DNA of 64,000 nt, taken from Eledone cirrhosa (lineage: Eukaryota). Positions 35,494-59,875 of this stretch are shown here, one piece after another (the stretch's first letter is position 1; the number at the start of each line of letters is the position of its first letter). The stretch spans positions 100,502,001-100,566,000 of the forward strand of contig OZ024743.1 in assembly GCA_964016885.1 (NCBI GenBank), given 5' to 3'. Below the pieces are notes generated by a model that saw nothing but the letters and a program-made list of their open reading frames with translations, searched no databases and was not told the DNA's origin. A program made the translations under genes and the position numbers.

Positions 35494-36138
35494 ACTTGCG
35501 CAGATTAGAAAGAAACGAAGCCTGCATGCTCCGATGGAAGTGTAATAGTAATATACGCGAACGGCAAAGTATAAACGAATTGAGAGAGAGACTGAGCATC
35601 AGAGGAATCAAATGCTGTGTGCAGGAGAGGCGGTTGCGTTGGTATGGACATGTGATTCGTATGAAGGATGACAGCTGCATAAAAAGGTGCAGAGCACTAG
35701 AAGTCGATGGAAACCACGGAGTGGGGAGATCCAAGATGACCTGGGATGAGGTGATAAAGGCCGACCTTACCCAATTGCACCTCTCAAGAGCAATGACACA
35801 CAACCGTGACCTCTGGTGTCAAGCAGTAATACAGAAGACCTGACCACCCCACAGGAACAAGCTGAAGCATATAGACAATATGCCCCAACACCCTCCCACT
35901 GCAAAAAAGCACCCAGCCCACACTGTAAAGTGGACGTGTAGGCGCCACGGAAAAAAAGCACCCAGCACTCACTGTAAATGAGGTTGGTGTTAGGAAGGGC
36001 ATCCAGCTGTAGAAATCAAGCCAGAATCAGTTCCTGTATGAGCAAGACAAGGTCAGCTAACTGGACACTGCCCACAACAGGACAGCCCGTCTAGCCCATG
36101 CTAGAGTGGAAGAACGGACGTAAAACGATGATGATGAT
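35494..36138 (+). mobile_element. 5'-truncated RTE-B, first of a head-to-tail chain
   Basis: LRRLERNEACMLRW...; 3'UTR as at 55310-55614; preceded and followed by (TA)n. Confidence 0.92.
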
Positions 36139-36166
36139 ATATATATGTATATATATATGTATATAT

Positions 36167-37096
36167 ATAAATTCTGGCTATGGAAACAGCAGTTGGAATC
36201 AAGAGGACAGAGTGAACATAGCTAAAACAAAAGTGCTGATAAGTAGAAGAGAGGACAATACTCTGATTCCATCAGGGAAATGGCCATGTTCGATATCTAG
36301 GAAAGGAACTGGCATAAATTCCATAAAATGTACGCAATGCAGATCTTGGGTACAAAAGAGATGTAGTGGGATAGCAGGCAAACTAACAGGTAGGGAAAAC
36401 TATGTATGCAGTAGATGTACAGGGAAAGTTGGCAGTAGTATGTGATAGACTCATTTTTCCAATGCAGGCGGGTTCTATAGAAGTGGTTGATAGCTTCCGG
36501 TACCTAAGTGATCAGATTAGCATGGGGGGGGGGGCATAGTATCTAGAATAAGGACGGGTTGAAAGAAGTTTAGGGAGCTGCTTCCTCTGTTGACAAAGAA
36601 GGGCTTCTCCCTGCGTACAAAAGGACGGTTATATGATGCCTGTGTGAGATGCGCGATGCTGCATGGTAGTGAGACATGGGCAACAACTGCAGAAGATATG
36701 CGACGGCTGGAGAGAAATGAAGCAAGTATGCTTCGATGGATGTGCAATGTCAATCTGCGTGAACGACCAAGCATAGACGAGTTGAGAAAGAAACTGGGTA
36801 TAAGAGGGATAAGTTGTGGTGTGCAGGAGAGAAGGCTGAGATGGTATAGACATGTGATGCGCATGGAGGATGACCGCTGGGTAAAGAAGTGCCAAGAAAT
36901 TCCAGTAGAAGGAAGACACAGTAGAGGTAGACCACGAAAAACATGGGCGGAGGTGGTGAGAACAGACCTCAGATCGCTGAAACTCACCGAGGAGATGACA
37001 AAGGACCGTGACAAGTGGAGAGATGCTGTACTGAATAGGGCCCATCCAACCCTTGCAAGCAGGGAAAAGCGGACGTAAAATGATGCTGATGATGAT
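36167..37096 (+). mobile_element. 5'-truncated RTE-A, second of the chain
   Basis: Closely matches 11430-12352; ORF 36590-37078. Confidence 0.92.
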
Positions 37097-37111
37097 ATAT
37101 ATATATATATA

Positions 37112-37773
37112 TAAGAACGAGATGGAAGAAGTTTAGGGAACTACTACCACTGCTAGCTGCAAAAGGCTTCTCCCTCAAAATGAAAGGCAGACTGTATGAT
37201 GCGTGTATCCGAACAGCGATGTTGCATGGTAGTGAGACCTGGGCGCTGAAGGTGGAAGACTTACGTAGATTAGAGAGAAACGAAGCCTGCATGCTCTGAT
37301 GGATGTGTAATAGTAATATACGCGAACGACAAAGCATAAATTAATTGAGAGAGAGACTGAGTATAAGAGGAATCAAATGCTGTGTGCAGGAGAGGCGGTT
37401 GCGATGACACATGACCGTGACCTCTGGCATCACGCAGTAATACAGAGAACCCGACCTCCCATGGGTACAAGCTGAAGCATATAGACAATATGCCCCCCCC
37501 CCCCACTGCAAGGTGGTCGTGGAGGTGCCACGGCAAAAAAAGCACCCAGCCCACACTGTAAAGTGGACGTGTAGGCGCCACGGAAAAAAAGCACCCAGCA
37601 CTCACTGTAAATGAGGTTGGTGTTAGGAAGGGCATCCAGCTGTAGAAATCAAGCCAAATCAGTTCTTGTATGAGCAAGGCATGGTCAGCCGACCAGAGAC
37701 TGCCCACAACAGGACAACGCGTCTAACCCATGCTAGCATGGAAGAACAGACGTAAAACAGTGATGATGATGAT
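37112..37773 (+). mobile_element. 5'-truncated, internally deleted RTE-B, third of the chain
   Basis: Matches 54797-55085 joined to about 55240-55614. Confidence 0.92.
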
Positions 37774-37775
37774 AT

Positions 37776-38336
37776 ATATTAATTCAAAATATTAACAAAA
37801 TAGATATTCTTGTGATCAATTATATTTTATTATACATATTTCAGAGGTACTGAGTTAAGTTCAACAGTACGTTCTCATCAGATAAAACAAAATGATACAT
37901 GACATACCCTGACATGGTAGATGGATAATATTCAATCAAGGTAGTGATTAACTTATGACAAAACTCAATATTTATACCCTAATATTGATAACATGAGATA
38001 ACGTAATAGAAACAATAGAGAGTGTGTATGTAATAGATTTTAAGAAATACATGGCATTAATGTAACAGTTATAAAATTTTTAATTTTTAAAAACTACTAG
38101 AGAAAGAGGAGGGAAAAGAAAGCATAGAGGAAGAAATAGCTGATGTGATATATTTAGTAAGTGGCCTGCGAAGACAAATGAAGGATGATTAAAGAGAGAG
38201 ACAAAGGGGAGTAATTTATGTTCAAGTTTCTACACACAGAATTCTATATAATATATTTGGAGACTAATTTTCAAAATATTTAATTTATGTTATTGATCAC
38301 AAGAATATCTATTTTGTTAATATTTTGAATTAATAT
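37776..38336. repeat. Perfect 45-bp inverted repeat enclosing 471 bp
   Basis: 37776-37820 atattaattcaaaatattaacaaaatagatattcttgtgatcaat is the reverse complement of 38292-38336. Confidence 0.93.
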
Positions 38337-38434
38337 TAATAACTCTGGAAAACATTTTTCTGTTGAGTGCTTCCAGTCTATTGTAAAACTCATTCTTTGA
38401 TGTATTCATTGAACCTTGTTTAACTCTTAAATAT

Positions 38435-38776
38435 ATCATCATCATCATTTCATTTTACGTCCGCTTGTCCCTGCTTGCAAGGGTGGGACGGCAACTGATG
38501 CTGGCTTGATTTCTACAGCTGGATGCCCTTCCTAACACCAACCTCATTTACAGTGAGTGCTGGGTGCTTTTTTGCTGTGGCACCTCCACGACCACTTTAC
38601 AGTGGAATGATAGGGACCCCAGACCCTATCATCTCATTTCTACAGCTGAGTAAACTGGAGCAATGTGAAATAAAGTGTCTTGCTCAAGGAAACAACACAT
38701 CACCCGGTCCGAGAATTGAACTCACAACCTTTCGATTGCAAGGCCAATGCTCTAACCACTAAGCCATGTGCCTCCA
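38435..38776 (-). mobile_element. tRNA-head SINE with chimeric RTE tail (well-preserved copy)
   Basis: Head ggaggcacatggcttagtggttagagcattggcc...gagttcaattc; same structure as 13430-13803. Confidence 0.9.
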
Positions 38777-39243
38777 TAGTATATATATATATATATAAGT
38801 GGTCTTGTTGGTGACAACAAAATGGAAATATGTCAAGCCCACACTGTAAAATGATCGTGCAATAACAAGTGCACAGTCTACACTGTAAAGTAGTCATTTT
38901 GGTGACATGACAAAAAGTGCCCAGCCACTGTAAAGTGGTCGTGTTGACGACAACAAAAAGAACCTAGTCCACACTATAAAGTGGTCATTTTGCTGCCAAA
39001 ATAAAATGCCCCCAGTCCACACTATAAAGTGATTGGCATTAGGAAGAGTATCCAGCCATAGAAACCAAGCTAGAAACATTTCAGTATGAGCAAGACATGG
39101 TCATCTCATCTGACTTGTCTCACAACGAGACAACTCGTCTAACACATACTAGCGTGGAAAAAATGGACGTTAAATGGTGATGATATATATATATATCTAT
39201 ATATAGATAGATGTGTGTGTGTGTGTGCGCACATATATATATA

Positions 39244-39670
39244 TGGGACCTCCAAGATAATAACATAACATACAATCTTATTTGGAGCTAACTCCTACAC
39301 GGGAGGACGCCATCCATGTAACTTATGCTCGGAGGAAACATTACAAATGCTGTTTACGAAGGACCAACTCCTAAACAAAAAAGACGAACTTGTAACTGCA
39401 TGCAAACACTGATTGTGTAGGACTTACCTCACCCTCAAACCCCCTAATGACCCGGGTGGGTAGACAATGGCTGCAACATCCTTTTCCCTACTTGCCGAAC
39501 AAGATAGGGGAAACCCCAGCTAACATAGGTAGATGTACTTCTTTTCCTTTTTATTTTCTTCTTCCCTTTATCTCTTCCTATCACTTCCTTCCATTCCCCA
39601 TCCTCTTCTCCCTTTCGCCTACCTCGAGGCAGCCCATCAGGCTTTTGTAGCCTCAGTACCCCCACCCCAG
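39244..39670 (+). mobile_element. Penelope-like element fragment (GIY-YIG C-terminus plus downstream sequence)
   Basis: WDLQDNNITYNLIW/..SYTGGRHPCNLCSEETLQMLFTKDQLLNKKDELVTACKH* matches the PLE W.L...W...C.LC..E...LLNK..EL...C.H pattern; begins at a (TA)n run. Confidence 0.7.
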
Positions 39671-40114
39671 TAAATTATATATAGCATTGGCCGATATATA
39701 TAATTGTTTCTACTTTTGGCACAAGGCCAGTGTATTACTGGTACTTTATTTTATCGACCCCGTAAGGATGAAAGGCAAAGTTAACCTCGGCGGGATTTGA
39801 ACTCAGATCATTACCAATTAATTATAGCAGCTGTTTTAGACCCTAGAGATTTTTTATTACTTTTTACTATCCAATTCTATAATTTTATATATTTTTTATT
39901 TATTTCTTATCTTCTAATCTCAATTTATTAACCTATCCTATAACGTCCCCTCTTTATTTTCTCCAGAATCCTTTTTCGCCTGCTTCCTATCTAGCCTATT
40001 TTCATACACAATTTGCTATAGAGAATTCACTTTCAATGCTTGACCGGCTCCACCCACTCCCTCATTGTTCTACAGGCAAGTTCAGCCACCCCCACCTCCC
40101 ACCCACTGCCATGA

Positions 40115-41398
40115 AAGACTTGTGTTTACAAGAAATTTTGACCAATCATCTTGACAACTACAATCTTCCCAATAAGGAATTACCCCTTAAAAAGTTTGGC
40201 TATTTATTTACCATGCTAAAAATTCTAACTCTCTGCAATGGGTGTGAGGGATGATCTTTTCGACTGGTTGAAATCCTTCATTCTCAGCCGAAAAGAAGTA
40301 GTCATGGTTCTAGGACAGCATTCTTCACCATATGAGATGTCATCTGTTCTTGGTCCCCTTTTGTTTGTGGCATATATTAATGACATAGATGCCAACTTAC
40401 AGAATGCCACGGTACTGAAATATGCAGATGACATCAAGCTGTACCTTGAAATCAAAAGGACTGATCCTGAAATCTACAACTCTTTCCTACAATCAGACCT
40501 GGACACAATGCAGCAATGGATCACAGACTGGCTGTGGACAAGTGTACCACCATGCATTTTGGAAGGAAAAATCCAGCGTCCACATACTCCCTCCACAACA
40601 CTGATATCAAGAAGTCCTCTTGTGAACGTGACCTGGGCATTACTGTCAGCAGCGATTTGCGTTGGACAAAGCATGTCTCTAAGATTGTCAAGAAGGCCGA
40701 GGGTGTCTTGGCATCACTCAGCAAGACCTTTGTTAGCCGCTCCCCAGCCATCTATTTAAAACTGTATACAGCTATGGTACGACCACACTTGGAATTCGCA
40801 TCATCAGTCTGGAACCCCTATCTTGCTCAGAACATTGACCTCCTGGAAACTGTTCAGAGACGTGCAACCAAGCGCATACCCTCCATCAGACACCTACCAT
40901 ACTCTGAACGCCTTGCTTCCCTGGGCATGGATTCATTGAAGCTCCGACGTCTGGCAATGGACTTGGTAAATACCCACAAAGTTATTAACCATCTCGCCAA
41001 TTGCAACCCCGAACACCTTTTTGAAATCCATGTGTCTAACACACGTGGACATGCCTACAAAATCAGAAAACAGCACAGCTCCCATGACTTTCGTAGACAA
41101 TTTTTCACGCTCAGAGTTGCTGAAGCATGGAACAAACTGCCTGCGTCAGTTGTTAGCTGCCGAGACACTGCATCCTTTAAGACACTCATGCTTCCCGAAA
41201 TACGCCAAAACTACACCCGATGTACCCCTTCCATACACATGCACACTTGTGTGTATCATGACTCATGCACTGTTCATTTTCCTGACATTTGTACATTATT
41301 CTATGTACTATACATGCACCTTTGATGAGTTGTAGTGCACCTGAGCACTGTACACAATAATTTCATTATTATTATTTCATTATTATTATTATTATTAT
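40115..41398 (+). mobile_element. 5'-truncated CR1-clade LINE (RT 3' half and tail)
   Basis: SVLGPLLF.AYIND..YADD (40238-40759) and ERDLGI...RPHLEF..SVWNP...VQRRATK (40516-41325); (ATT)n tail. Confidence 0.93.
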
Positions 41399-42155
41399 TA
41401 TATGTGAGAGCATGTGTATATATGTTTGGGTGTGTGTATGAGTGTACATATATAAGTTATAAGGTTGACTACAACTAGGAAAAAGAAAATAACATAAAAG
41501 GAATGAAAAAGATGCCTCATGATAGTTTGAGATATTTTATGAACCACTCCCCAAATCACAATACTATTTTCAATGCTGAAATGCAAGTACCATCATTTCA
41601 CAGAGCTTTTTTTTAGGTCAGTGTCTATATCTATTAGATTAAAGGAAAGACTTGAAAGTGAGGACAGACCAGCCATTTAAATACAACATAGAAATTAAGT
41701 ATTTTAATTTGCAGTTTTGACTTCTAGAGCACAGGTTACCAAACTTTTTTGAACTACTGTCCCTTTCTAGAGAATATATTTCACCCATACCTCCACCACC
41801 ACCCACTGTTGATACAAAAAATTACAAGGAACTAATTTGTATTCTCTGCTCCATTCCCCCCCCCCCTTCACATCACTTTAACCCCTTGATTTCCAGTGTC
41901 CCACATGAGTCCCCCATAGCATCCACTTTGGGAATCACTGATTTAGAAGCATTAAAATCTTCATAGCTTAAAAAATGTGTACTTTCATATGCAATATGGT
42001 TTATATTTCCAGTACTAAGTTATAGAAATATAAACAGAACTAATGTCAATACTATTCACTCATTACAATATATAGATATAAAAAGTTTCCAATGTTTATG
42101 TTCATTCACAAATTTTAACATTCAGTACCTGACAAATTTCACCTCACATATGCCA

Positions 42156-42407
42156 AGTAGTGCACCTGAGCACTGTACACAATAATTTCATTATTATTAT
42201 TAAAAGAGGTTTAGTGAATTGGCAGTATCAGTAGAGGGTCGGATGCCATGCTTTGACGCATAGAGTTACGGCCCTTGCCATTATGAGTTCAAATCCCGCC
42301 GAGGTTAACTTTGCCTTTCATCCTTACGGGGGTCGATAAAATAAAGTACCAGTAATACACTGGGCAATTGCTGGCCTTGTGCCAAAAGTAGAAACAATTA
42401 TTATTAT
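42156..42407 (+). mobile_element. CR1 tail stub (42156-42201) followed by a tRNA-head SINE (42208-42407)
   Basis: gtagtgcacctgagcactgtacacaataatttcattattattatt, then gtgaattggcag...gagttcaaatccc...gcctttcatcc...gtagaaacaattattatt. Confidence 0.85.
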
Positions 42408-45400
42408 AAGGTGATACTTCTAAATATTTTCTTAGATAAGAAATTACTATATACAAAACTATGCTCCAGTAGGACCACAGCTCATGGGCTGAAACAGGTA
42501 AAAGAGTAAATGTAATAATTTTAAGCAGAATTTTCTTTTAGATAAGAATCACTCTTTAAAAAATGAGGCAGACATGTTAATTTTTTTAAAGAGGAAAAAG
42601 GAAATATTAACTACAAGATTAGCAATTCAGTAAACATTTTTGAGCTTAATAACCAGAGTCTTTATTATCATTAGTGGTAAACACAATAATAGCTTCTAAA
42701 TTATGTACAAGGCCAGCAAATTTGATTAAATACACTGCAGTATTTGACTGGTTCTTTATTTTATCTACCTCAAGATGATGAAATGGGGTTGATAAAATAT
42801 AGGGTTTGATATTCTCCTTTCCCTAAAATGCTAGCCTTGTACCTAACTCAGAAATCATTATTACCACCACCTCAGAAGTAAAATAGACTAATGAATACTG
42901 CATAATTCACCCAAGCATACTGTATGTAGCTCATCAACAAACTGATGATTAAACCAGTAAATAAGCTTCTGAATGTATCAGTAAATATATAAAAGATTAT
43001 GAAACAAAACTACACTATAGCAAGTAGATGACATAGAAAGTTAATCTTTCAACAAGACTTAAGGAAAATGACTTCTTTGTATTTTTGAAATATTTTTCTT
43101 TTGATAAATATTTTATAACAAATAAAAAAGGAAAATGTTTCTATAGCAAAATGAACTGAAAATTTTGTATAATTTTAACAACAGGGTCATAAAAATAACT
43201 ATGTATTGAGTACATCTAATTCACTTAGTAACATTTTATAATAACTTATCGATCAGCATAAAACTCTCCATGGAATGATCATTTACATTGTCTCATTAAA
43301 AAAACAGGTAGAGTTTGTTAGAACATTAAATAAAATATTTGTGATATTTAGTTACATTCTCGGTTCAAATCCTGGTGCGGTTGGCTTTATTTTATTGATC
43401 CACAGAAGGATGAAAGGCAAAGTACCAGAGAGTTTATATCATTTGGTATTCTTCTAAAGTCCTGTTTTATGTGGTTAAAATCATAATTTAATCCTTTTGT
43501 TACCATATTTCTAATGAAAGATACTACCTGTTATTTTCAATTAATTTTGAAAATAACTAAGTATTAGAAGAGATTTAGTAAATTAACTTTCTCATTAAGC
43601 TGATGTTTGGAGCATAACTTACATAAAATTATAATGGAAGAGATTTTAGATAAATATATATATACAAACACTTTAAAATAACCAGTTTTGTATCATAAAC
43701 CCAGGGGCAGTTTCAGCAGGTTTGGTATGGAAATGGCTAACAACCATGACCAAACAAAGAAAGAAATATTCCCTACTTGCTATGTAAAATCAAACATACA
43801 GATCATCTGACATACTACTAAACAATGTTCCTAAAACCTATCAACATTACAGCCAGATATACAGTGCATGAAGACAACAGACAAAACAGCAAAAAGAAGA
43901 AAAAAAATGCTTGATATAAATAAAAAAGTAAATTCCCAATTGTCTGGCACCAAACAATTTCCTTATTTCACACACTACTTGACCTAGCAGTCTTGCTAAG
44001 CATTATGTTTTATAGATAAGTAAGCTAAATAGCTAACCTCTCTGAATGAAATGACTAACACCTACTGTCTATCTTCCAAACAGTGGTGGTTGCATCCACA
44101 CATTTAGGTAACAATTCTGTATGCTAAGAAGTTCTGTTTTGTGTATCATCTTGTCTCTTGAGAGCTGTAAGAGGTGTGCGTGTGTCTAACTCTTCACAAC
44201 TGCTGTCAGGGTACTTGAACTTAATATAGAATAATGACAGAGGATGATGAGTTACATACAAACTCAATGTAAAAAAACAGATGGTGACAGTACATAGAGC
44301 TTTCTCTTCACACAAAAAAATTAGAATAAAAATAGAAATATAAAACTGGAAAGAAAAAAATATAAATAATTGCTAACTATATAATTTTCTGCCCAATAAA
44401 CCCCATTTGATAAATATGATTTACTGATTTACTTCATTATATCCCTGTGAATTTTATGTAGTCAATCATTTGTCACTAAAGTTTCTGGAAGAGGTAATTA
44501 TAGGAAGTACTTGATTATCACCAAACTGACAGTCTTTATTTATTAGTAACACTCACCCTTTACAACAGATATTCTCAACATTTTTACCATTTCTCATATC
44601 TGGGTCATTTTTTTTTTTCAGATCTAGATTTACAACAGAGTATTTATATATATATAAAAAAATATTTACCTTCCCTCAAATAAAACCTCTCTAAATATTT
44701 AGTGATTGCTAGAAAGGTTTGCATTTTTTTTACTTTAATTTATTTTTTTCTTTCATTTTCTCTATTTTATCAGCCATGTGAATCCCATTTAAAATAGGTA
44801 CACTGTATCTCAGCATGCAGTAAGAAGCAACAAAAGACATAAAATCAAGAAGGGAAGACAGCTGTAAAACATTGCCTCAAAAAGGACCCCATCTTGAGTA
44901 TGAAATCATGGGACTTCTTGTGTTGTTTCTCTACTTCAAAGGTTGAGAAGATTATGTAAATTCATACATTTTCATTAATTATTGTAGCAAGAGCTTTAAA
45001 ACAGTGTCCTTTTAATTCCATCTATTCAAGCAAAGTAAAAAAAAAAAGTGGGTGGTACCTTTTTTTTTAGGGGATTTTGTTTTTCTGTGTTTCTTTTTAA
45101 TAAAATTGACGAAAATAAACAAAGCTCCAATCAGATTATAGAAAAATAAATAAATGAGTTACAAGAGTTTAGATAATTACAAGGGTTTAGATAATTTAAA
45201 GGTTTTACAAAATTGCAGGATGAACATATACCAGGGAATAAAATTTGAAATAATACTAAAATATTTAGAACCACATTGTTTTTGTTCTGATTCTGCTGTT
45301 AACCCTTTTGGTACCAACCCTCCTAAAATTGCATCTGGTTCTATGAAACATTTAAAGGGTTTCTATTTAAATTAAAACCTTCCATCATAATTTGACATAA

Positions 45401-46089
45401 GAATCTTTTATTAAATTTCATTAGAAATACCATCTTAATGAAACAATAATTTTAGTAAATTGTTCCAAATCCATCATTAATTAATTGAAATACAGTGTAT
45501 TTCACAAGAAATAAAGTCATAATATGGTTAAGTAATCACTTAGTTTAGTTAGAGCAATAATAAATCAACATGAGCCAACTGAGAAGTCTTAATCACAAAC
45601 AAAATCAGAAAGAACTTCCCTACTACCTCAACAAAGTAGAAGTTTTAAATAGTAAGGGACAGCAAGCTTTCACTATCTTAGTGGGAGAATACTATGTAGG
45701 TAGCATACAAGACCATCTAAACACTGCTTCACTAAAGGTAATCTCTTAATCACAAAATCTTGCGCTATAATACCAACAGAACAGAAGCATATGAAAGAAG
45801 AAATTATATATATATATATATATATATGCAGTGCCTTTGGTCACTATAAAAGCTTCACGGCACAGGCATTGCTTTATATCTGGAGATCTCTCTGCACTTG
45901 TCATCACATGGTACCATGGGCCCAGCACTATGTGTCAATAATTGTCACAAGTGTAGTGTTTGTACCAGAGTTTTCAAGTCGGTGGCTGGACTAAAAAGTC
46001 ACATTCGTTCAGTGCATCGATAGGGGTTCTCCTACATGGATATAAAGTAGTGGCCATACTCGAAAACGAGTTGGCAGCCACCGTGTGTG

Positions 46090-46121
<32 letters not shown>

Positions 46122-46125
46122 TGTG

Positions 46126-46595
46126 TTCTGGTTTTATAATTTCAAAAAGTTTTACCAATAGAGAGAGAGAGTCGGTTTCTAACAGACAAGACTCTCTCAT
46201 TGGAATTTACACATCAACTAGGTAGATATGTATGTATGTCTGCATGCATGCATGTGTATGTTTTGAGTTGTATGTGTGCATGTGTATATGCTTTGTATCT
46301 GTACATGTGTATATGCAGTTATTAGATGCAAAATTTTGGGAATGTTTTACATATTTTTACTGTTCCATTAATGGATTGTACTTGTAATTTCCTAACTAGT
46401 TGTGTTCTTTCTGTTCCTGTGAAGCCTAGCTTCTCAAGATTTGTATTGAGGCAGTTACTAACATATCCCAGTGCCCCAATAATTACAGGCATAAATCTGA
46501 AGGTGTAATCAGGGTGGAGTATCTGCAGATTTCTCATCAGTTCTGCATAAATATTCTCCTTTTCACTAATCTTTGATATTATATTGGCATCGGTC
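46126..46595 (-). mobile_element. R4/Dong-like (restriction-like endonuclease) non-LTR 3' fragment
   Basis: D.NII.KI.EK...Y.EL......PVIIGALG motif in ORF 46322-46693; the 3' end abuts a (CA)/(CACG) microsatellite. Confidence 0.75.
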
Positions 46596-46654
46596 CTCAA
46601 TGTTGCCATTGACTGACTGACGGTCAAAAATAATACAGATACAATATAGACACA

Positions 46655-46720
46655 AACACATATATATAGTTTATCATAAATCTTTCGTTGCACATCTGCA
46701 ACATCGTCAGTGGTGTTATA
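46655..46720 (-). ncRNA. Hammerhead ribozyme-like motif (type I topology, stem I degenerate)
   Basis: Minus strand reads aacacca CUGACGA U GUUGCA gaug UGCAAC GAAA G a UUUA uga UAAA C UA^ uauaua ugugu. Catalytic boxes intact, perfect 6-bp stem II, CUA triplet at 46669-46667. Confidence 0.6.
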
Positions 46721-47054
46721 TTTTCCTCCTGTTGTGTTGTATGTCTACGCCATTTTTATTCAGTCTGTCTATCATCATCATCAACGTTTAACGTCCGTGT
46801 TCCACGCTTGCATGGGTTTGGACGGGGGTAGTCCCACTTGAGGCAAGAGTGATTGTCTTGCTCGCATAGGACTGTCTGGCAGGTATATTTATTTATTTAT
46901 TTGCTTGTTTGTTTGTTTATTTTATTTTGTCTTCTTTGCGCATGCGTTTGCGTGTGTGTATAGTGTTGTTTGCTGTGGGATGGGTGACTAGTGTGTGTTT
47001 ATGTGCTTGTTGTTATTGTGCTTGTGTATGTATTTATTTATTTATCTTATTTTA

Positions 47055-47575
47055 TTTATATATATATAAATATTTATATATATATAAATATATATAAATA
47101 TTTATATATATAAATATATATAAATATTTATATATATATAAATATTTATATATATATATAAATATAAATATATATTTATATATATATAAATTTATATATA
47201 TATAAATATATATATATAAATATATATTTATAGAAGATATATATTTATAGAAGATATATATATATAGAAGATATATATATATAGAAGATAGTGGACCTGA
47301 TATCACTGCTCTACACCAACACCAAAGCCCAAGTCATTACACCTGATGGGATGACAGAGTTCTTTGAGATACTGGCTGGAGTGCTCCAGGGAGATACATT
47401 GGCTCCCTACCTTTTTATCATCGTAGTGGACTATTGTATGCGCCTTGCACTGGAGAAACACCAGGACTCTGGCTTTACTGTAGCACCGGCTCAGAGCAGG
47501 AGAGTTAGGGCGAAAAAGGTATCGGATGCTGAATTTGCCGACGACATAGTTTTGGTGACAAATATATATAAATAT

Positions 47576-47606
<31 letters not shown>

Positions 47607-47755
47607 CATAAATATATATAAATAAATATATATATATATATACATAAATATATATAAATAAATATATATATATATATACATAAATATATATATATATATA
47701 CATAAATATATATATATATATACATAAATATATATATATACATAAATATATATAT

Positions 47756-47786
<31 letters not shown>

Positions 47787-47858
47787 CATAAATATATATA
47801 TATATATACATAAATATATATATATATATACATAAATATATATATATATATATACATA

Positions 47859-47894
<36 letters not shown>

Positions 47895-47945
47895 AATATA
47901 TATATATATAAATATATATATATATAAATATATATATATATAAAA
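47055..47945. repeat. Complex (TA)n-rich microsatellite array interrupted by an RT fragment
   Basis: Direct reading; source of the spurious YIYI ORFs. Confidence 0.95.
47292..47560 (+). mobile_element. Internal RT fragment of a different non-LTR family (RTEX/RTE-like)
   Basis: Open frame [46 protein letters not shown]...EFADDIVL; no tail or 3'UTR. Confidence 0.85.
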
Positions 47946-48149
47946 ATCATGATCATCATTTCATTTTACGGCCGCTTTTTCCCTGCTTGCAAGGGAGGGA
48001 CGAGAACTGATTCTGGCTTGATTTCTACAGCTGGATGCCCTTCCTAACACCAACCTCATTTACAGTGAGTGCTGGGTGGATTTTGCCGTGGAATGATAAG
48101 GACCCCAGTCCCTACCATCTCATTTCTACAGCTGAGTAAACTGGAGTAA

Positions 48150-49273
48150 TCTATATATATAAAACTGAGGTTGTCTGTCTGTCTATCGATTTTTGGCACA
48201 CATCTCCTCTTAGAATCTCTCACGGAATTGCACCGAAATTGCTATACTTGTACATTGAGCCCTAGCGAAGACATCGGAAAAAAAATATTTCAAATTGACC
48301 CGCCCTATCTGACGAAATCGAATATAATGTATCGATTTTTGAGCCTAAGTGATCAGTTATTTCCCTTTGTTCTGTTTACATTCAGCGTAGCGTCTTACGT
48401 TCTCTTTACATTTTCTGCGTGCAAAAATTAAAAAAATGATTTCCCTTTGTTCTGTTTACATTCAGCGTAGCGTCTTATGTTCTGTTTACATTTTCTGCGT
48501 GCAAAAATTAAAAAAAATTACGCTGGCAAAAATTAAAAAAATTACGCTGGCTTTCTCAGAGTTTAAAATGACATTAACACGCAAAATTCATCAGTTCGAA
48601 CACTAAGCTTCCGTTTTGCTTCATTTCCATTTAAAAGCCTTTTAAAACAATATTTTTACTTGAAAACAAGTCTATTTAAAGACTACGTAAAACAAGAAAA
48701 TATTTCGTAAAAAAAAGCAAAAATTATATAAGTTTATTTAAAATATATGTATCTGTAAATTTGGTTAGGCGTGCAGACAGACAGTCGTGCAGAGAGGTGA
48801 TATACGCGTGCAGACAGACAGTCGTGCAGAGAGGTGATATAGGCGTGCAGACAGACAGTCGTGCAGAGAGGTGATATAGGCGTGCAGACAGACAGTCGTG
48901 CAGAGAGTTGATATAGGCGTGCAGACAGACAGTCGTGCAGAGAGGTGATATAGGCTTGCAGACAGACATAACTGATAATTTGGTTACGCTAATGTTTTTC
49001 TCTGCGTTGCAGTGTTTACATTTTCGATCTTTGTTAATAAATAACCAGTGCAGTTTTTATCCCCAGCATCCTCTTTTGTTATAACATTCGGGTTATCGTT
49101 ATGTTTTCTTAACTTCATAAGGCATATTGTTGGTTGAGGGAATATTAATCAAAAACACCACATGCAAGTCTGCACAGTAGACACTACAGTTTTTAAGCCA
49201 AAAAAGAAACTTAACATTGTAACTTTAACACAGCTACTGAGCGACCCCGAGCAACGCCGGGCTTTACTGCTAA
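48150..49273 (+). mobile_element. Non-autonomous Helitron, 1124 bp
   Basis: 5'-TC...CTAA-3' (CTRR), inserted between A and T with no TSD; GC hairpin cccg-a-gc-aac-gc-cggg at 49246-49261, 8 nt before the terminal CTAA. Confidence 0.9.
48767..48968. repeat. 37-bp minisatellite (about 5.5 copies) inside the Helitron; also an 80-bp tandem duplication at 48359-48518
   Basis: Unit aggcgtgcagacagacagtcgtgcagagaggtgatat at 48767, 48804, 48841, 48878, 48915 and 48952. Confidence 0.95.
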
Positions 49274-49386
49274 TGTGAAATAAAGTGTCTTGCTCAAGGA
49301 CACAACACATCACCCGGTCTGAGAATTGAACTCACAACCTTTCGATTGTAAGGCCAATGCTCTAACCACTAAGCCGCGTGCCTCCA

Positions 49387-49499
49387 TATATATATATATG
49401 ATATATATATATATGATATATATATATATATATATATGATATATATATATATATATGATATATATATATATATATATATGATATATATATATATATATG

Positions 49500-49530
<31 letters not shown>

Positions 49531-49547
49531 ATATATATATATATATG

Positions 49548-49578
<31 letters not shown>

Positions 49579-49935
49579 ATATATGATATATATATATATG
49601 ATATATATATATATGATATATATGATATATATATATATGATATATATATATATGATATATATATATGATATATATATATATGATATATATATATATATAT
49701 ATATGATATATATATAATATATATATATATGATATATATATATATATATATATGATATATATATATATATATATATGATATATATATATATATGATATAT
49801 ATATGATATATATATATATATATATATGATATATATATAATATATATATATATGATATATATATATATATATATATGATATATATATATATATATATATA
49901 TGATATATATATATATATATATATATGATATATAT

Positions 49936-50007
<72 letters not shown>

Positions 50008-50017
50008 TATATATATA
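49387..50017. repeat. About 630-bp G-interrupted (AT)n microsatellite
   Basis: Direct reading. Confidence 0.97.
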
Positions 50018-50129
50018 TTTTGCTTCTGAATTTGTTTAGCAAGATTCTTTATCTGAAAACGTGTGTTGAAGCAGATATTGTTATATATTGGCAACATGAC
50101 CCTACCAAAGCATAACAATATATAAATAT

Positions 50130-50982
50130 ATATATTTATATTTCAACCGATAATTTTATGCAAATTTTTTTAACTTCTGTTGTCACTCTTGTCTTCATAA
50201 GAACAGTGACTATATTTCCATTATTTTTTTTCAGAATAATTGATTATGAATAGTTTTGAACCTCCAAATTTGTGGAAGAGACACAGAGTTCTTCTTGGAA
50301 TCCGCACCAGGAGGACAAATAAGACCAGAAGATCAACTCCCAGAACAACAGGTGGCTCGCTGTCTCATCCAAAGACATGCCCGGAGTCATGCAGACAAAG
50401 TTTCCAGCGACAACATTGGTCCTAGGTGTCGTCTGCAGTCAAGGTTACGTCATGCCACCTCACTTCTTCCCTGAGAGCCTCAAGCTGAAAACCGATGGCT
50501 ACATCCGCGTTCTGAGCGAGGTAGTAAAGCCCTGGATCGACCAGGTAGCTGCAGGTAGGCCGTACGTGTGGCAACAAGATTCAGCGCCCTGTCATACCAG
50601 CCGAAAGACCCAAGCCTGGCTGTCAGAGAACTTCATCGACCACACTTCACCTGACATCTGGCCTCCCAGCTCGCCTGACTGCAACCCCCTCGACTTCTTT
50701 GTGTGGGTCGCACCAGATCTAGCTGCAATACGAAAGACGATCTGAAGGCCAGGATCACAAGTGCCTTTAGGGGCCTAAGTCGGGGGGACAGTGACGAAGG
50801 CCTGTAGCCGGTTCCGAGGCCGGCATCAAAGCTAATGGCGGGTATATCGAGTGAGATCGAAAGAACAAGTCATGAAGACAAACTGACCCAAGTTTGATAA
50901 ATATATATCTTAAAAAATAAAACTACTGTGTTATTTTTTCCTAGACAGTAATCTTGCGAACAGATATCGTCTGCACCTTGTA
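50130..50982 (+). mobile_element. Internally deleted Tc1/mariner transposon, DD37D (maT) type
   Basis: QQD-x37-D spacing in WQQDSAPCH...WPPSSPDCNPLDFFVW (50377-50745). The N-terminus at about 50246 is joined directly to the catalytic half; the right end ...ctgcaccttg is followed by TA. Confidence 0.85.
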
Positions 50983-51040
50983 TATATATATATATATATA
51001 TATATCCAGGGAGTGTAACGTGAAGTTAAAGTAGGTTCAC

Positions 51041-51074
<34 letters not shown>

Positions 51075-51156
51075 GGATTCCTATATTGGGAGGTGACAAA
51101 AGTTAAAAAAGGTACTCAATACACTAGAGTATAGGCATCATTATTTTATTATGAAA

Positions 51157-51337
51157 GGGCGGTGAATTGGCAGTATCGGTAGAGGGCTTGACATGCTTTC
51201 CAGCATAGTTACGTCCCTTTACGATCTGAGTTCAAATCCCGTCAAGGTTAACTTTGCCTTTCATCCATACGGGGTCGATAAAATAAAGTACCAGTAATGT
51301 AATTGCTGGCCTTGTGCCAAAAGTAGAAACAATTATT
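51157..51337 (+). mobile_element. tRNA-head SINE
   Basis: gggcggtgaattggcag...gagttcaaatccc...gcctttcatcc...gtagaaacaattatt. Confidence 0.85.
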
Positions 51338-52194
51338 TTATTATAAATGAAACAGTTCTAGTCCTACAGAAGTCATTTCTATAATTATATATATCATCAC
51401 CATCGATTAACGCCCATCTTCCATGCTAGCATGGGTTAGACGGGTTTATCCCGTTTATATAATTACACACCCTGAATTTACCCGCCAACAATTTGGGCAA
51501 CTTAACCTTCCTCTTTTGAGAAAGGTTACATGATGACGAGCGAATTACTACTATAGTAGAATGCCTCAATGTCTCCCAGCAGAAATACGTTGGATAATAC
51601 AGAACAAAGCCTGCGAATGAAGGAGACTCTCGTTCCATCATGGTAGCACATTTATGACTTGCATATCCATTATGCAACTCATGATGCAGCTTCCCAGAAT
51701 CCCAGAAACCTATCGAAGATTTTTATTGATTTCTATCTACTCAAGACAGTCAATGCTAGTCTTCGACCTGTTTGTATTTATCATTGGTGTGATATAAGTA
51801 TAGCCATACGCTTTTTTGGTGTCACACTTTCTTAACTTGGTGTTCACTCTGGACGAAAATGTATTAAATTCCCACACCATTGAGTGCTTTGTGACTGCTT
51901 CAAACAATTTGATTTATATCTATTATTATTACATATGTTGGGTTGGACAACATTCCTGCTGTTTTTCAAAAGGAGGCATTTTGGTAGAGTTTTCTAGAAA
52001 TGTTGAAAATTGGGCATACACACATATATAAGAATTGACATTGGTATGCGCTATGTGCATTTCTAATTTTCTGTTACATTGTCAAAGGGGAAGTAGCATT
52101 TTATTCATGGCTATTACTTTATGACTTTAAATCTAGCCTAAGCGCAGCTGCATCGAGTTATCACATTAATAATACATTTGGGTTACCATGAAAT

Positions 52195-55100
52195 ATGAAT
52201 CTGCGAGCTACCAAGCACCCACGTGAAGCGCCAACCCAGAGACCCTCCCCTACGAGTGTCGACAAATGCCCAAAACTCCGAGTTGGTACCATCAATGTAG
52301 GCTCAATGAAAGGAAGAGCAGGAGAAATCGTAGAAATGCTAGAGCGAAAGGAAGTTGATGTATGCTGTGTGCAAGAGACTAGATGGAGAGGAGGGTCTGC
52401 TAGAGTCCTTGTAGGAAAAAGCCAGTGCTACAAATTTTTCTGGGTGGGAAATGACGATGGGATGGGTGGTGTAGGTATACTATTAGCTGACAAGTGGGTA
52501 GATAAAGTAATCTCAGTGTACAGGGTAAATGCAAGAATCATTAAACTCAGACTAGTCCTGAATAAGACAATTACCACAATAATATCAGCTTACGCACCCC
52601 AATCGGGGCTGCCAGACGAACTTAAGGATAGGTTTTACGAGTCCCTAATACACACTACTGCTCTAACAGACGACAAGGACTTCCTAATCATTGCAGGAGA
52701 TTTTAACGGACACGTAGGTAAACACTGCGACGGCTTCAATAGAGTACATGGAGGCCATGGAGTTGGCACAAGGAATGAGGAAGGATTCAGACTTCTAGAA
52801 TTCTGCGACGCCAATGACATGTCGATATGTAACACAAACTTTAAAAAACCCGACAACCACCTGATCACCTATAGATCAGGGGAGCACTCTAGTCAGTTAG
52901 ATTTTATCCTCATCAGAGGACGTGACAGATGGACGGTCGTAAACACAAAAGCCTTCCCTAGTGAGGAATGTACATCCCAACATAGCTTAGTTGTCAGCGA
53001 CCTCACGGTCAGAACTAGACGAGCCCTGAAACAGAGGCCAACCTGGAGAAGAAAGATCTGGAAGCTGAAAGTCCCCTCAACCAGTAACAGATTTAAAGAT
53101 ATTTTACTCAACGCCTACGACAGTAAAGAAGAACAGATAGAGACATTTAACGTAGAAGAGAACTGGGAGTTCCTAAAAAATAACTTACTAGAGGCGACGG
53201 ATGAGGTTTGTGGCTGGAGTAAGACCTCAAGCAGGAGGAGAGTGACTTGGTGGTGGAACAATAAGGTAGATGAAGCAGTCAAGGCCAAGAGACAGGCATG
53301 GAAAGAATGGAAGAACGGGGGGAGCAGGGTACATTACATAGAGACCAAGAGGGAAGCTAGGCGACAAGTATACTTAGCTAGGAGGGAAGCAGAGGATAGA
53401 AAATTCAAGCATGTTTTACAACGTGAGGACCAGAAACAGGAGGTATTCAAGATTGCGAGGCAGTGTGTCAGAGATAGTTGTGATGTCATTGGAGAGAAGT
53501 GTATTCGGAATGATAAAGGTGAGCTTGCCCTCACAAGTGCTGAGAAGAAAGATGCATGGAAGAGTCATTATGATAGATTACTAAATGAGGAGAATGCATG
53601 GGAAGAAGAGACCCTACCCCACGTAGACCCTATAGAGGGACCAGCAGTACAAGTCAGCGGCAGCGTAGTAAGTAAGGCAATCAGAGATATGAAGATAGGG
53701 AAGGCAACCGGTCCATCGGGTATAGCTGCCGAGATGCTGAAGGCATCTGGGTCTGTAGGTCACACTATAACCACACGTATCGTTAACCAGGTAATACTAG
53801 AGGGGGCCATACCAAAAGATTGGTGCAGTAGCATCATTGTCAACTGCTACAAAGGTAAAGGCGATGCACTAGATAGAGGAAACTATAGAGGTATAAAGTT
53901 GATGGACCAGGTCATGAAAGTAACAGAAAGAGTTATAGCACAGCTGATTAGGGACCGGGTGAATATAGACGAGATGCAATTTGGGTTTGTACCAGGGAAA
54001 GGCACCACTGATGCCCTCTTCCTTGTGAGGCAATTACAGGAAAAGTACCTAGCTAAAAGTAAGCCACTCTACTTGGCATTTGTCGACCTTGAGAAAGCCT
54101 TTGACAGAGTTCCACGTGCAGTAATCTGGTGGGCTCTTAGAAAACTAGGAGTAGATGAATGGCTTGTGAAAGCGGTACAAGCCATGTATAGGGGAGCAGT
54201 CAGCAAAGTTAGGATTGGCAATGAGTATAGCGAGGAATTTAGCGTACAGGTTGGGGTCCACCAGGGCTCTGTTCTTAGCCCTCTCCTGTTCATCATAGTC
54301 CTGCAGGCAATAACGGAGGAGTTTAAGACCGGATGCCCATGGGAACTCCTGTATGCTGATGACCTCGCACTCATAGCTGAATCTATGGTAGAACTAGAGA
54401 ATAAATTCCAAACCTGGAAGCAGGGACTAGAGAGAAAGGGCCTCAAAGTCAACATGACAAAGACTAAGGTCCTTATAAGTAGATGAGAAAACAGAACCCA
54501 GATCCCCTCAGGGAAATGGCCTTGCTCAGTATGTAGGAAAGGTGTAGGTAGGAACTCCATTCTCTGCCCCAAATGCAAACAATGGGTACACAAGAGATGT
54601 AGCGGGATCTCAGGAAGCTTAATTAAGAATGTAGGATTCACATGCAGCAGCTGTGCTGAAACAGCAAGCAAACAGCCACAGGAAAGAAGTACCACCAATC
54701 TCTGGGAGGGCCCTGTAGAAACAGTAGACAGCTTCTGCTACCTAGGTGACCGAATTAGCAACGGAGGTGGGTGCTCAGAAAGTACAATAACTAGGGTAAG
54801 AACGGGATGGAAGAAGTTTAGGGAACTACCACTGCTAGCTGCAAAAGGCTTCTCCCTCAGAATGAAAGGCAGACTGTATGATGCGTGTATCCGAACAGCG
54901 ATGTTGCATGGTAGTGAGACCTGGGCGCTGAAGGTGGAAGACTTACGTAGATTAGAGAGAAACGAAGCCTGCATGCTCCGATGGATGTGTAACAGTAATA
55001 TACGTGAACGACAAAGCATAAAGGAATTGAGAGAGAGACTGAGCATAAGAGGAATCAAATGCTGCGTGCAGGAGAGGCGGTTACGCTGGTATGGACATGT

Positions 55101-55311
55101 GATGCGTATGAAGGATGACAGCTGCATAAAAAGGTGCAGAGCACTAGAAGTTGATGGAAACCGCGGAGTGGGGAGACCCAAGATGACTTGGGATGAGGTG
55201 ATAAAAGCCGACCTTACCCAACTACACCTCTCAAAGTCAATGACACACGACCGTGACTTCTGGCGTCACGCAGTAATACAGGGTACCCGACCTCCCATGG
55301 GTACATGCTGA
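52195..55311 (+). pseudogene. RTE ORF (about 1038 codons) interrupted only by an in-frame TGA at 54484-54486
   Basis: ORFs 52195-54486 and 54862-55311 share a frame; the intervening 54487-54861 reads open when translated by hand. Confidence 0.9.
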
Positions 55312-55614
55312 AGCATATAAACAATATGCCCCCCTCCCCCCCACCGCAAGGTGGTCGTGGAGGTGCCACGGCAAAAAAGCACCCAGCCCACACTGTAAAG
55401 TGGACGTGTAGGCGCCACGAAAAAGCACCCAGCACTCACTGTAAATGAGGTTGGTGTTAGGAAGGGCATCCAGCTGTAGAAATCAAGCCAGATCAGTTCC
55501 TGTATGAGCAAGGCATGGTCAGCCGACCAGACACTGCCCACAACAGGACAACCCGTCTAACCCATGCTAGCGTGGAAGAACGGACGTAAAACGGTGATGA
55601 TGATGATGATGATG
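52195..55614 (+). mobile_element. Near-full-length young RTE LINE (family B): APE endonuclease, RT, PHD-type finger, 3'UTR and (GAT)n tail
   Basis: GTINV, QETRW, SAYAPQ, GDFNGH, SQH (APE); YADD at 54352-54363; a single frame from 52195 to 55311. Confidence 0.96.
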
Positions 55615-56503
55615 TCTGAACACTGTGCCAAGGACTAGCTTGCATGCTTCCATCCTTGAAGTTCAACTTTGCACAAGACATCCATCTGATTTCAATGACA
55701 AACAACTATATGAGCTGATAGAAGCTGACCCAAGTCAGACATCACAACTCTGTGCTTGGGGCATCAAAAACAACAATCCTCAATCACATGCAATAGGGAA
55801 TGTGTCCAAGCTGGACCAATGAGTGCCCCACAATCTGACCAATGAGTGCCCCATAATCATGAATATTGGGTGGCAGGTGTAACTGACTGGTTACATTCTA
55901 TTGTCACTGGTGATGAAAAATGGTGTCGCTACATACAGTCAAGCGCAAGCGATCATGGGTTGATAAAGAGAGTGCACCTCAATGGCTGGCCAGCACCCTC
56001 GCAAAACCCTAGTGAGCATCTAGTGGGACTGAAAAAGTGTCATCCACTACAAGCTGCTCCTACCAACATAACCTGACATCTATTACCAATAATTTGACAG
56101 ATTAACAGCAAATAATCACACAGGTAGAACCACACCATGGTCCAGTTTGATTTCTTTATGATAACACTTGGTGTTATGCATCAAGTATGTTCTATGAGAA
56201 GCTTCTGGAGCTAGGTATTGCCCCTCCTGCCATATTCGCTCGATGTCGCGCTTACAATCACCTTTTTCTCTCAATGAAAAATGCAACACACTCAAAGACC
56301 TTTACCAATGAAGACCAGTTATATCAATGGCTGACGGAATTCTTTGCAATGAAGCCAGAAGAATTCTCCAGGATGGAACCATGTGCAGATGGTAATCGCA
56401 AATGATGGCATTTATTTTGACTTGTAAAATGTTCTTAATGTTAAAAAATACCAAAGTCAATAAAAAATTTGAAAAACAGCAAGAATTTACTGTCCAACTT
56501 TAT
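55615..56503 (+). mobile_element. Decayed mariner transposon (5' part missing)
   Basis: Relics RHPSDFND.QLYELIEADP.QT, KLDQ*VPH, IVTGDEKW and YNHLFLSM; right-TIR-like aaaaacagcaagaatttactgtccaacttta. Confidence 0.8.
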
Positions 56504-56994
56504 CTATATACACACACACATTATATATATATATATATATATATAAACTACAAGATTAGCAATTAAGTGTAAATTTCTGACCTGTACTGTAAATGTTAGT
56601 GGGAAATCCTAGCCAAGTTAATAAAAGACTCATCTAAAAGGTTTTCAGGTCATAACCTGAATTAGTTTTTAATGTTATCCACCAGAATAATAAATTCATA
56701 GATGAGTTTGAAACACAAGATTAATACTTTCCCACCCCCTGCAGCTAAGTCAAATAAGAATTCAATGAACTGAATCAAAGTATGGTTTTGTGACATTTGT
56801 GAAAAACTAAATACTAAAATTCTATTTCAATGTAATATTGTGATAATCACCTGAAGCAGAAAACTGGAAAAAATATTAGAACTACTATTGTTAACACTGC
56901 CATTACTATATTTCTAATGAAAGACACTATCTATAATTTTCAAATAATGTTGAAAATCAACTCATTTTTAATTTGGTATTCATGTCTACCACTA

Positions 56995-57385
56995 CCTATG
57001 GTCGTAAATCTTGGGTAATGACTGAAAGAATATCAGGAATATAAGCGGGCGAAATGGGATTCCTCGGAAGGGTCTTTAGAGTAACATTACTCAGTGTATG
57101 TAGCTCGGAGATCAGGGAGTCGCTACTTCTCAAAATTGAGAGATCACAGCTCTGATACTATAGGCATATGGTCGAAATGAAAAGAATCGCTGGATAGATT
57201 TTATGGGCAAAACTAACTAGGAGGACATCCAGGAGTAAACTCCAAGCATTATGGTTGGATAACATTCATGATCTCGGCTGGTCTCAATTAGGGATCCAGA
57301 TGGCTAAATTAGAGACAGGACCCGCTATAAGGGTGCTTCAGGACTGCCTCTATGACACTCCCAGGAATAAGTGGGTGAAAAACAA
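56995..57385 (+). mobile_element. Old RTE (Expander-like) 3' fragment inserted in a TTAA-type MITE
   Basis: YG.KSWVMTER...AGEMGFL...IERSQL..; flanks at about 56890 and 57390-57780 are parts of the larger TTAA element. Confidence 0.65.
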
Positions 57386-59786: not shown

Positions 59787-59809
59787 GAGAGAGAGAGAGA
59801 GAGAGAGAT

Positions 59810-59875
<66 letters not shown>

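What the first reader, a model, noticed from the sequence alone, without database searches (positions are those of the whole stretch)
46655..46720. Hammerhead ribozyme core on the Arp3 sense strand, inside the presumed first intron
Seen on the minus strand: CUGACGA (46710-46704), one extra U, a perfect 6-bp stem II GUUGCA/gaug/UGCAAC (46702-46687), then GAAA (46686-46683). Stem III is G-a-UUUA/uga/UAAA-C and the NUH triplet is CUA (46669-46667). The 5' stem-I arm AACACCA can pair with UG-UGUU (46660-46655), but that partner sits behind a 6-nt UAUAUA run. Established: CUGANGA-stem-GAAA is the hammerhead core, extra residues after A9 occur naturally, and animal hammerheads are mostly carried by Penelope-like elements and retrozymes. 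Inference: this is a fragment of an unrecognised ribozyme-bearing mobile element between an R4-like piece and an RTE tail. It may have been silenced by (TA)n slippage; if active it would cut Arp3 pre-mRNA.
Basis: partly seen in the sequence, partly recalled or inferred. Interest (0 to 1): 0.75.

Follow-up and report, generated by a model that had tools for sequence, protein, structure and literature searches.

The report
Eroded Penelope hammerhead in Arp3 intron
This is one broken copy, among more than 11,000, of the self-cutting-RNA motif that Penelope-type jumping genes carry at their ends; it landed in the first intron of an Arp3 gene and is predicted not to cut it, so it is likely ordinary transposon debris.

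Summary
The motif is real and lies in the sense strand of Arp3 coding intron 1 (66 kb). It belongs to a known kind of element. It is the minimal type I hammerhead in the pseudo-LTR of a young, Neptune-like Penelope-like retrotransposon (RT plus C-terminal GIY-YIG), with 11,148 exact core copies in the genome.

Sister families and metagenomic relatives put helix III at A-G-AU-U-U, the cut site at UUA (46677/46676, not CUA), and stem I at ACCA/UGAU. The UAUAUA run is shared by the family (1,332 identical copies; 1 without it), so it is not slippage in this copy.

This copy is a solo, 3'-truncated pLTR with no partner ribozyme on the pre-mRNA, and its stem I is predicted unformed. It likely does not cut Arp3 RNA; this is untested and no RNA run was listed.

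One oddity: along the lineage the core and stem II are kept, with compensatory changes, while stem I erodes and a longer helix III ending at CUA appears in the youngest copies. The scan has already noted Penelope hammerhead stubs in this and other octopus-like genomes.

The parts
46704..46710 (-). Hammerhead core box CUGACGA (C3-A9)
   Evidence: invariant apart from N7 in 39 aligned copies of three families
46687..46703 (-). Extra U after A9, then 6-bp stem II GUUGCA/GAUG/UGCAAC with G10.1-C11.1
   Evidence: 99% of cells paired, 2 pairs changed on both sides between families; pair probability 0.92-1.0
46683..46686 (-). GAAA box (G12-A15.1)
46678..46683 (-). Minimal helix III: A15.1-U16.1, G15.2.U16.2, 2-nt loop AU (near-palindrome AGAUUU; AGAACU with G-C in sister families)
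   Evidence: same register, with perfect palindromes, in 5 metagenomic relatives
46676..46677 (-). Predicted cleavage site, after A17 (46677), triplet UUA
   Evidence: inferred from homology; not tested
46711..46714 (-). Stem I 5' arm ACCA
   Evidence: pairs with 46676-46673 with an A.C mismatch at the third pair; family C has a perfect GUCA/UGAC here
46673..46676 (-). Stem I 3' arm UGAU
   Evidence: predicted pairing probability about 0 in this copy
46661..46668 (-). UAUAUAUA run, shared by the family; can pair with AUAUA 46721-46717 as a distal stem I extension (predicted weak)
46646..46748 (-).
   Evidence: MFE, z -2.9 for 46645-46750; pair probabilities 0.79-1.0
46590..46772 (-). 3' segment of the truncated pLTR (positions 185-367 of the family UTR/pLTR); ends about 120 nt short of the element end
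   Evidence: 98-99% identical to other copies
46773..46883 (-). 3' tail of an RTE-type LINE ending in (GAT)n, inserted inside the pLTR
   Evidence: 100% identical over 114 bp to L017 and L028, where it follows an RTE-like ORF in L028
46884..47066 (-). 5' segment of the pLTR (A-rich 3' UTR just behind the ORF stop)
47053..47283 (.). (TA)n microsatellite at the 5' end of the copy, the family's usual insertion context
46126..46589 (-). 5'-truncated 3' end of an R4/Dong-like non-LTR element (restriction-like endonuclease C-terminus and 3' UTR), joined to the pLTR at a 2-nt GA microhomology
   Evidence: clade label from recalled motifs
19634..64000 (-). Arp3 coding intron 1 (continues to extended position 85946; 66,313 bp)

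Best explanation
The motif is the minimal type I hammerhead of the pseudo-LTR of a young Penelope-like retrotransposon family (likely Neptune type), left as a solo, 3'-truncated copy in Arp3 intron 1, where it is predicted not to cut. Shown: the family has a unit of about 4.1 kb, with one ORF of about 1,210 aa (RT, CX4CxxC linker, C-terminal GIY-YIG) between pLTRs in partial tandems; this motif sits about 230-270 nt behind the stop and about 220 nt before the next start; copies end in (TA)n. Inferred: in the parent element the motif would cut after UUA only when two copies pair their helix III halves and/or the element's own protein helps folding, as reported for other Penelope hammerheads. 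Inferred history: a 5'-truncated pLTR landed at a (TA)n, later lost its 3' 120 nt and tail at the R4-like junction, and received an RTE tail. It now lacks a cis partner and the ORF-start region that the element protein is suggested to bind, and it has only two contiguous stem I pairs.
For: 11,148 exact core copies; 38,462 first-look candidates for the C-terminal protein, the best 150 scored at 98-100% identity; ORF-pLTR-ORF-pLTR tandems and inverted truncated copies; RT and GIY-YIG support; register fixed by family C (GUCA/UGAC: 5' arm in 23 of 29 copies, 3' arm in 29 of 29), pair counts and 5 metagenomic relatives; no second motif in the window plus 40 kb upstream; stem I probability about 0; single minimal motifs showed no cleavage in vitro (PMC4209133); an Anolis Penelope hammerhead cut only with its protein and was not needed for insertion in vitro (PMC11167929).
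Against: No activity or RNA data for this species. Energy models ignore tertiary contacts and proteins. A D. virilis Penelope hammerhead has a 2-bp helix I, so a short stem I is natural. The compensatory changes amount to only three independent events among related families, and the shuffle control for the number of such pairs is not exceeded (415 of 500). The clade was assigned from motifs, not from a tree with reference elements. The downstream introns of Arp3 outside the window were not searched for a partner.
Confidence: 0.82

Rival explanations
1. Register switch: the young subfamilies have moved the cut site to CUA (46667) by building a monomer-competent long helix III, and cut with a 1-bp or protein-scaffolded stem I held by the outer helix.
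For: Helix ending in G15.2-C16.2/CUA is absent in families B, C and the intermediate (median probability 0.005 or less), 6 bp in the window type (0.11) and 10 bp in the ORF-intact type (0.49; 2,612 exact copies), while the old stem I falls from 4 to 2 contiguous pairs and the core stays unchanged.
Against: Only one stem I pair is possible at CUA in every subfamily. The 10-bp helix comes from a tandem duplication of an imperfect palindrome, which lengthens a hairpin by itself. 5,586 copies with the same stem II keep the ancestral GAAC-UU-UG and spread well.
Confidence: 0.07
2. The motif is already non-catalytic throughout the young lineage; core and stem II are kept for another role (for example protein binding) or by chance over a short time.
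For: Stem I probability 0.008 or less in B, intermediate, window and ORF-intact types; in full-length pLTR RNA the ACCACUG stretch is predicted to pair about 150 nt downstream, covering the core; Naiads spread without canonical hammerheads (PMC8557442); cleavage is dispensable in vitro. This is compatible with the best explanation at this locus and differs only for the parent element.
Against: All 12 core positions are kept between families only 70-80% identical in aligned pLTR columns; two stem II pairs changed on both sides along this lineage.
Confidence: 0.3
3. One reading: an intact ribozyme silenced in this copy by (TA)n slippage, able to cut Arp3 pre-mRNA once repaired.
For: AACACCA can pair with UG-UGUU; older copies do show expanded (TA)n at this run.
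Against: 1,332 copies share the run exactly and 1 lacks it; ORF-intact copies carry it; family B has the run but no UGUGUU; the outer helix competes for UGUGUU.
Confidence: 0.01
4. The copy does cut Arp3 pre-mRNA at a low rate in trans, by pairing helix III with abundant family transcripts or with help from the element protein, and so lowers Arp3 output.
For: Sense orientation in a 66-kb intron; thousands of possible partner RNAs; protein assistance is reported.
Against: AGAUUU self-duplex is 0.0 kcal/mol against -5.0 for a perfect palindrome; the copy lacks the ORF-start region; no sign of exaptation (99% identical to other copies).
Confidence: 0.06

Closest known systems
Minimal hammerheads (min-HHR) in pLTRs of metazoan Penelope-like elements (Cervera and de la Pena 2014, PMC4209133; parts 1-2 of 4 read, figures and supplements not seen)
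   Same: Type I order, extra nucleotide after A9, G10.1-C11.1, long helix II, 2-bp helix III with tiny loop, position in the pLTR, mostly solo copies, opposite-strand pairs
   Different: Helix III is palindromic only through G.U pairs (not at all in AGAACU relatives); stem I has two contiguous pairs then an A.C mismatch; an extra outer helix
Drosophila virilis Penelope hammerhead variant (same paper)
   Same: 6-bp helix II with bulged 5' base, 2-bp helix I, very uniform young copies
   Different: No evidence here for an intron ending at helix I; linker zinc finger points to another clade
Neptune-clade EN+ Penelope-like elements (Craig et al. 2021, PMC8557442; 12 passages read)
   Same: C-terminal GIY-YIG with CCHH-type residues, CX2-5CxxC linker, (TA)n targets, partial tandems, inverted truncated copies, one-sided tail
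   Different: Not placed on a tree with reference elements; nearest named protein is an Octopus vulgaris hypothetical protein at 67%
Poseidon PAc of Anolis carolinensis (PMC11167929; passages read)
   Same: Hammerhead in pLTR, tail that is the ORF start, AT-rich targets
   Different: PAc cut site lies inside the ORF; here it is about 190 nt upstream of the ATG; activity untested here
Metazoan non-LTR retrozymes (bioRxiv 10.64898/2026.07.22.740005; parts 1-2 of 5 read)
   Same: Type I hammerhead, Penelope link
   Different: No tandem non-coding monomers here; the motif is part of a protein-coding element

Membership tests
PLE minimal hammerhead (type I) | CUGANGA and GAAA boxes with NUH in type I order | tested here: met
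PLE minimal hammerhead (type I) | Unpaired nucleotide after A9 and G10.1-C11.1; long helix II | tested here: met
   (G-C in 39 of 39; two pairs changed on both sides)
PLE minimal hammerhead (type I) | Very short helix III | tested here: met
   A-U in 38 of 39, G-C or G.U in 39 of 39
PLE minimal hammerhead (type I) | Palindromic helix III/loop for dimer formation | tested here: inconclusive
   AGAUUU self-pairs only with wobbles, 0.0 kcal/mol; AGAACU +1.4; perfect palindromes in 5 metagenomic relatives
PLE minimal hammerhead (type I) | Helix I of 4-5 bp | tested here: inconclusive
   3 of 4 pairs with an A.C mismatch, predicted unformed, in this copy; 4 of 4 in family C; a 2-bp variant is in print
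PLE minimal hammerhead (type I) | Located in the pLTR of a PLE | tested here: met
PLE minimal hammerhead (type I) | Self-cleavage as dimer or with protein | not testable with these tools
   needs a bench assay
Rfam hammerhead families | Covariance-model hit | tested here: not met
   none of the 7 control loci, 5 of them with 3-5-bp stem I motifs, hit either
EN+ Penelope-like element | Single ORF with RT | tested here: met
   ORFs of 1,217-1,218 codons; YVDD motif; RVT_1 E 8e-5, below the Pfam cut-off; the full ORF alone gave no Pfam hit
EN+ Penelope-like element | C-terminal GIY-YIG endonuclease | tested here: met
   VYSI...YIGET motif; 7 of 32 aligned homologues hit PF01541; 37% identity over 607 aa to P0071, which carries PF01541
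EN+ Penelope-like element | pLTR partial tandems, inverted truncated copies, one-sided tail | tested here: met
   tail of about 43-58 nt that equals the ORF start
Neptune clade | CX2-5CxxC linker before the endonuclease, CCHH residues | tested here: met
   CTNRKCIIC and CTEGTC...H...H by inspection; linker pattern in 47 of 52 homologues that keep the YxGET-type motif, out of 60 examined
Neptune clade | RT phylogeny with reference clades | not tested
   no named reference proteins in hand
Non-LTR retrozyme | Tandem non-coding monomers of a few hundred nt | tested here: not met
   no such tandem at the locus; same-strand repeats are 4.1-kb coding units
Non-circularly permuted hammerheads | Scrambled order of core, GAAA and site strands | tested here: not met
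   order is the ordinary type I order

The most novel reading that the evidence does not exclude
A massively amplifying Penelope lineage has rebuilt its hammerhead in steps that are all still readable in one genome (families C, B, intermediate, window type, ORF-intact type). The dimer-type stem I eroded, an outer bracket helix and a 6- then 10-bp helix III appeared, and the cut moved to a new CUA site that works as a protein-scaffolded monomer with almost no stem I. Thousands of copies in introns, this one included, would then be cut only when the element's protein is expressed.
Probability: 0.07. Interest if true: 0.65.

Novelty: new member of a known kind. Interest (0 to 1): 0.2.

Why it matters
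The locus itself matters little: it is one of thousands of intronic and intergenic stubs. The family has some value. It gives a graded natural series of one hammerhead in which the core and stem II are kept while stem I decays during continued amplification. That allows a direct bench test of the open question whether Penelope hammerheads need to cut at all, cut only as dimers, or cut only on their own protein.

Tried and rejected
Rfam scans: no hammerhead at E up to 10; controls were also blank. Sequencing runs: no RNA holder listed. Four contig runs of one study were laid on 46330-46900; they show the three repeats as separate high-depth families, and no listed piece spanned the pLTR-R4 junction, so the junction rests on the assembly alone. 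Type III reading (UGG at 46752-46750 with CCA): no NUH before it. Distal reading (UUC/UGG about 170 nt downstream in full pLTRs): predicted probability about 0 in all but one of the rows printed (at most 14 per group; one family-B copy 0.3), no counterpart in family C, and that stretch is absent from the window copy. AUA/UGUGUU register: G15.2 would face A, probability 0. Splicing as the origin of the pLTR-R4 junction (it falls at a donor-like CCGA|GTAAGT): no register gives both GT and AG, and the GT is missing in family B. Pile-up of 5'-truncated ends at the predicted cut: none among 156 internal 5' ends (1 at +6, 1 at +9), but the sample was chosen for an intact core, so this is inconclusive. 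My covariance model finds the window copy by construction; among the 17 metagenomic loci given it scored none of the five clear motifs, with only weak hits at E 0.02-0.2. Of 22 metagenomic loci reaching the ORF end, 5 gave a motif in a relaxed scan and 17 did not; several have under 300 nt downstream, and L090 shows a degenerate motif by eye. The PDB sequence search gave only weak RT hits. Lunse et al. 2017 (PMC5785218) is not held; only its title was seen in reference lists. Searches for this family in print; the O. vulgaris repeat paper PMC13282606 lists 30 recently active Penelope families and has no mention of ribozymes in its main text. Supplements of these papers and Repbase were not seen and may hold this family.

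Full report
OBSERVATION. The letters are as described: on the minus strand CUGACGA 46710-46704, an extra U, a 6-bp stem II with G10.1-C11.1, GAAA 46686-46683. My descriptor found this one motif in the window plus 40 kb upstream; a stem II of 6 bp or more appeared in 4 of 100 shuffles of the window. Actin-family exons lie on the minus strand. Exon 2 begins at 19633 and the first coding exon (MSGRLPAVVIDNGT, donor GTAAGT) ends at extended position 85947, so the motif is sense in a 66.3-kb first coding intron. The name Arp3 rests on recalled peptides. Rfam has no hit, but also none on relatives with good stems.

WHAT IT BELONGS TO. A DNA search of the own genome (3.0 Gb) returned 40 scored candidates, 92-100% identical over window 46772-46590. 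The same family covers 47066-46884, and the 111 bp between are an RTE 3' tail, identical to two other places. In other copies the sequence follows an ORF that ends in CTNRKCIIC...VYSIRCTEGTC...YIGET...EHARQQH and precedes the start of the next ORF. Longer loci show truncated ORF - pLTR - ORF - pLTR units of about 4.1 kb, inverted truncated partners, a one-sided tail of about 43-58 nt equal to the ORF start, and ends in (TA)n. Among 18 loci picked for long open frames, three have whole ORFs of 1,217-1,218 codons. RT support is weak but present (RVT_1 E 8e-5); 7 of 32 aligned homologues hit GIY-YIG; the protein is 37% identical over 607 aa to one that carries PF01541. The nearest named protein is from Octopus vulgaris at 67%, so the host is likely an octopod. 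By the clade features given in PMC8557442 (passages) this is an EN+ Penelope-like element of Neptune type; no tree was built. The 28-nt core pattern has 11,148 exact matches against 0 for the control.

THE REGISTER. Related families fix the fold. Family B (306 exact cores; protein 77-79%) and family C (protein about 50-65%) change two stem II pairs on both sides and read GAAA-GAAC-U-U-UGA. These are few independent events, and the shuffle control for the number of doubly changed pairs is not exceeded. Independent support: 5 of 22 metagenomic relatives that reach the ORF end show a motif 110-170 nt behind it, each with a 2-4-nt palindrome between positions 15.1 and 16.1 and a 3-5-bp stem I directly after. 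This is the min-HHR architecture of PMC4209133 (parts 1-2 read). The predicted cut is after A46677.

THE TA RUN. All 35 aligned rows keep it (two loci overlap). 1,332 copies match the window through the run, 1 has three or fewer bases there, and ORF-intact copies carry it. It is not damage to this copy.

HOW IT LIKELY WORKS. Shown: position, family, truncation, absence of a second motif in the window and the next 40 kb. Predicted: stem II and an outer 15-bp helix form, stem I does not (probability about 0), and the helix III dimer duplex is marginal. From print: single minimal motifs gave no cleavage and dimers little (review PMC6765202, passages); the Anolis motif cut only with its protein, possibly through binding at the ORF-start region, and cutting was not needed for insertion in vitro (PMC11167929, passages). 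The window copy lacks that region. Inference: it does not cut Arp3 pre-mRNA to a meaningful degree. The 3' loss occurred at a GA microhomology with a 5'-truncated R4-like element; deletion, insertion with target loss or template switch cannot be told apart.

THE ODDITY. Across C, B, an intermediate type (5,586 copies), the window type and the ORF-intact type (2,612 copies; median pairwise identity 0.994 in a sample chosen for long ORFs), contiguous stem I pairs fall from 4 to 2 and the predicted stem I probability from 0.79 to below 0.01. Against reading this as a new ribozyme: CUA is followed by only one possible stem I pair, and the longer helix arises from duplicating an imperfect palindrome. 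I give the switch 7%.

COMPARISON AND VERDICT. Works like, and is, a Penelope pLTR minimal hammerhead; its stem I is weaker than typical. It is not a retrozyme array and not a permuted hammerhead. Five paper searches showed no description of this family; supplements and Repbase were not seen. The scan's earlier notes report Penelope hammerhead stubs in this and other octopus-like genomes (unchecked AI notes, not used as support); a look-up by sequence gave nothing. New member of a known kind; interest 0.2.

Noticed in passing
window 50085-50020, minus strand: 59-bp piece matching the pLTR end and tail of the older sister family C (83% to the window family), abutting the (TA)n at 49386-50018.
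   Followed up: partly
window 52192-55311, plus strand: Near full-length RTE-type LINE with APE endonuclease and RT (764-aa frame, then a stop and a 274-aa frame with a PHD-like finger), antisense in Arp3 intron 1.
   Followed up: partly
window 49319-49375, minus strand: tRNA-like head (Rfam tRNA 27 bits, E 0.02, below gathering), probably a tRNA-derived SINE; a similar one near 38700-38760.
   Followed up: no
window 46590 / L005:1683-1689: The pLTR-R4 junction falls exactly before a donor-like GTAAGT; a second donor-like GTGAGT (GTGCGT in family C) lies about 30 nt before the ORF ATG and may mark a Penelope-type 5' intron.
   Followed up: partly
L005:1556-1565 with L005:1736-1746: In full-length pLTR RNA, ACACCACUG (stem I arm plus start of core) is predicted to pair with CAGUGAGUGU about 150 nt downstream in many copies (probability up to 0.99): a possible off-fold, missing from the window copy.
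   Followed up: partly
L082:4357, L099:2426: Metagenomic relatives with core variants: U15.1-A16.1 swap with palindrome UAGCUA (L082) and U3-A8 (L099).
   Followed up: no
L058-L061 (G000:C2:375705573-375729454); L066, L072, L075: Other hammerhead-like motifs in this genome: one in a tandem with 4,661-bp spacing, one with stem GAGAUA/UAUCUC next to (TA)n; probably further Penelope families.
   Followed up: no
L036:4806-5993: ORF of a different Penelope-like family inserted about 1.5 kb from a copy of this family.
   Followed up: no
L185:761-4414 (ORF): The family ORF has a long asparagine-rich low-complexity stretch (about 150 aa) in its N-terminal half.
   Followed up: no
L071:1460-1620: A copy with many T-to-C changes on the element's sense strand around the motif, which would fit A-to-G editing of the antisense RNA copied back to DNA.
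   Followed up: no
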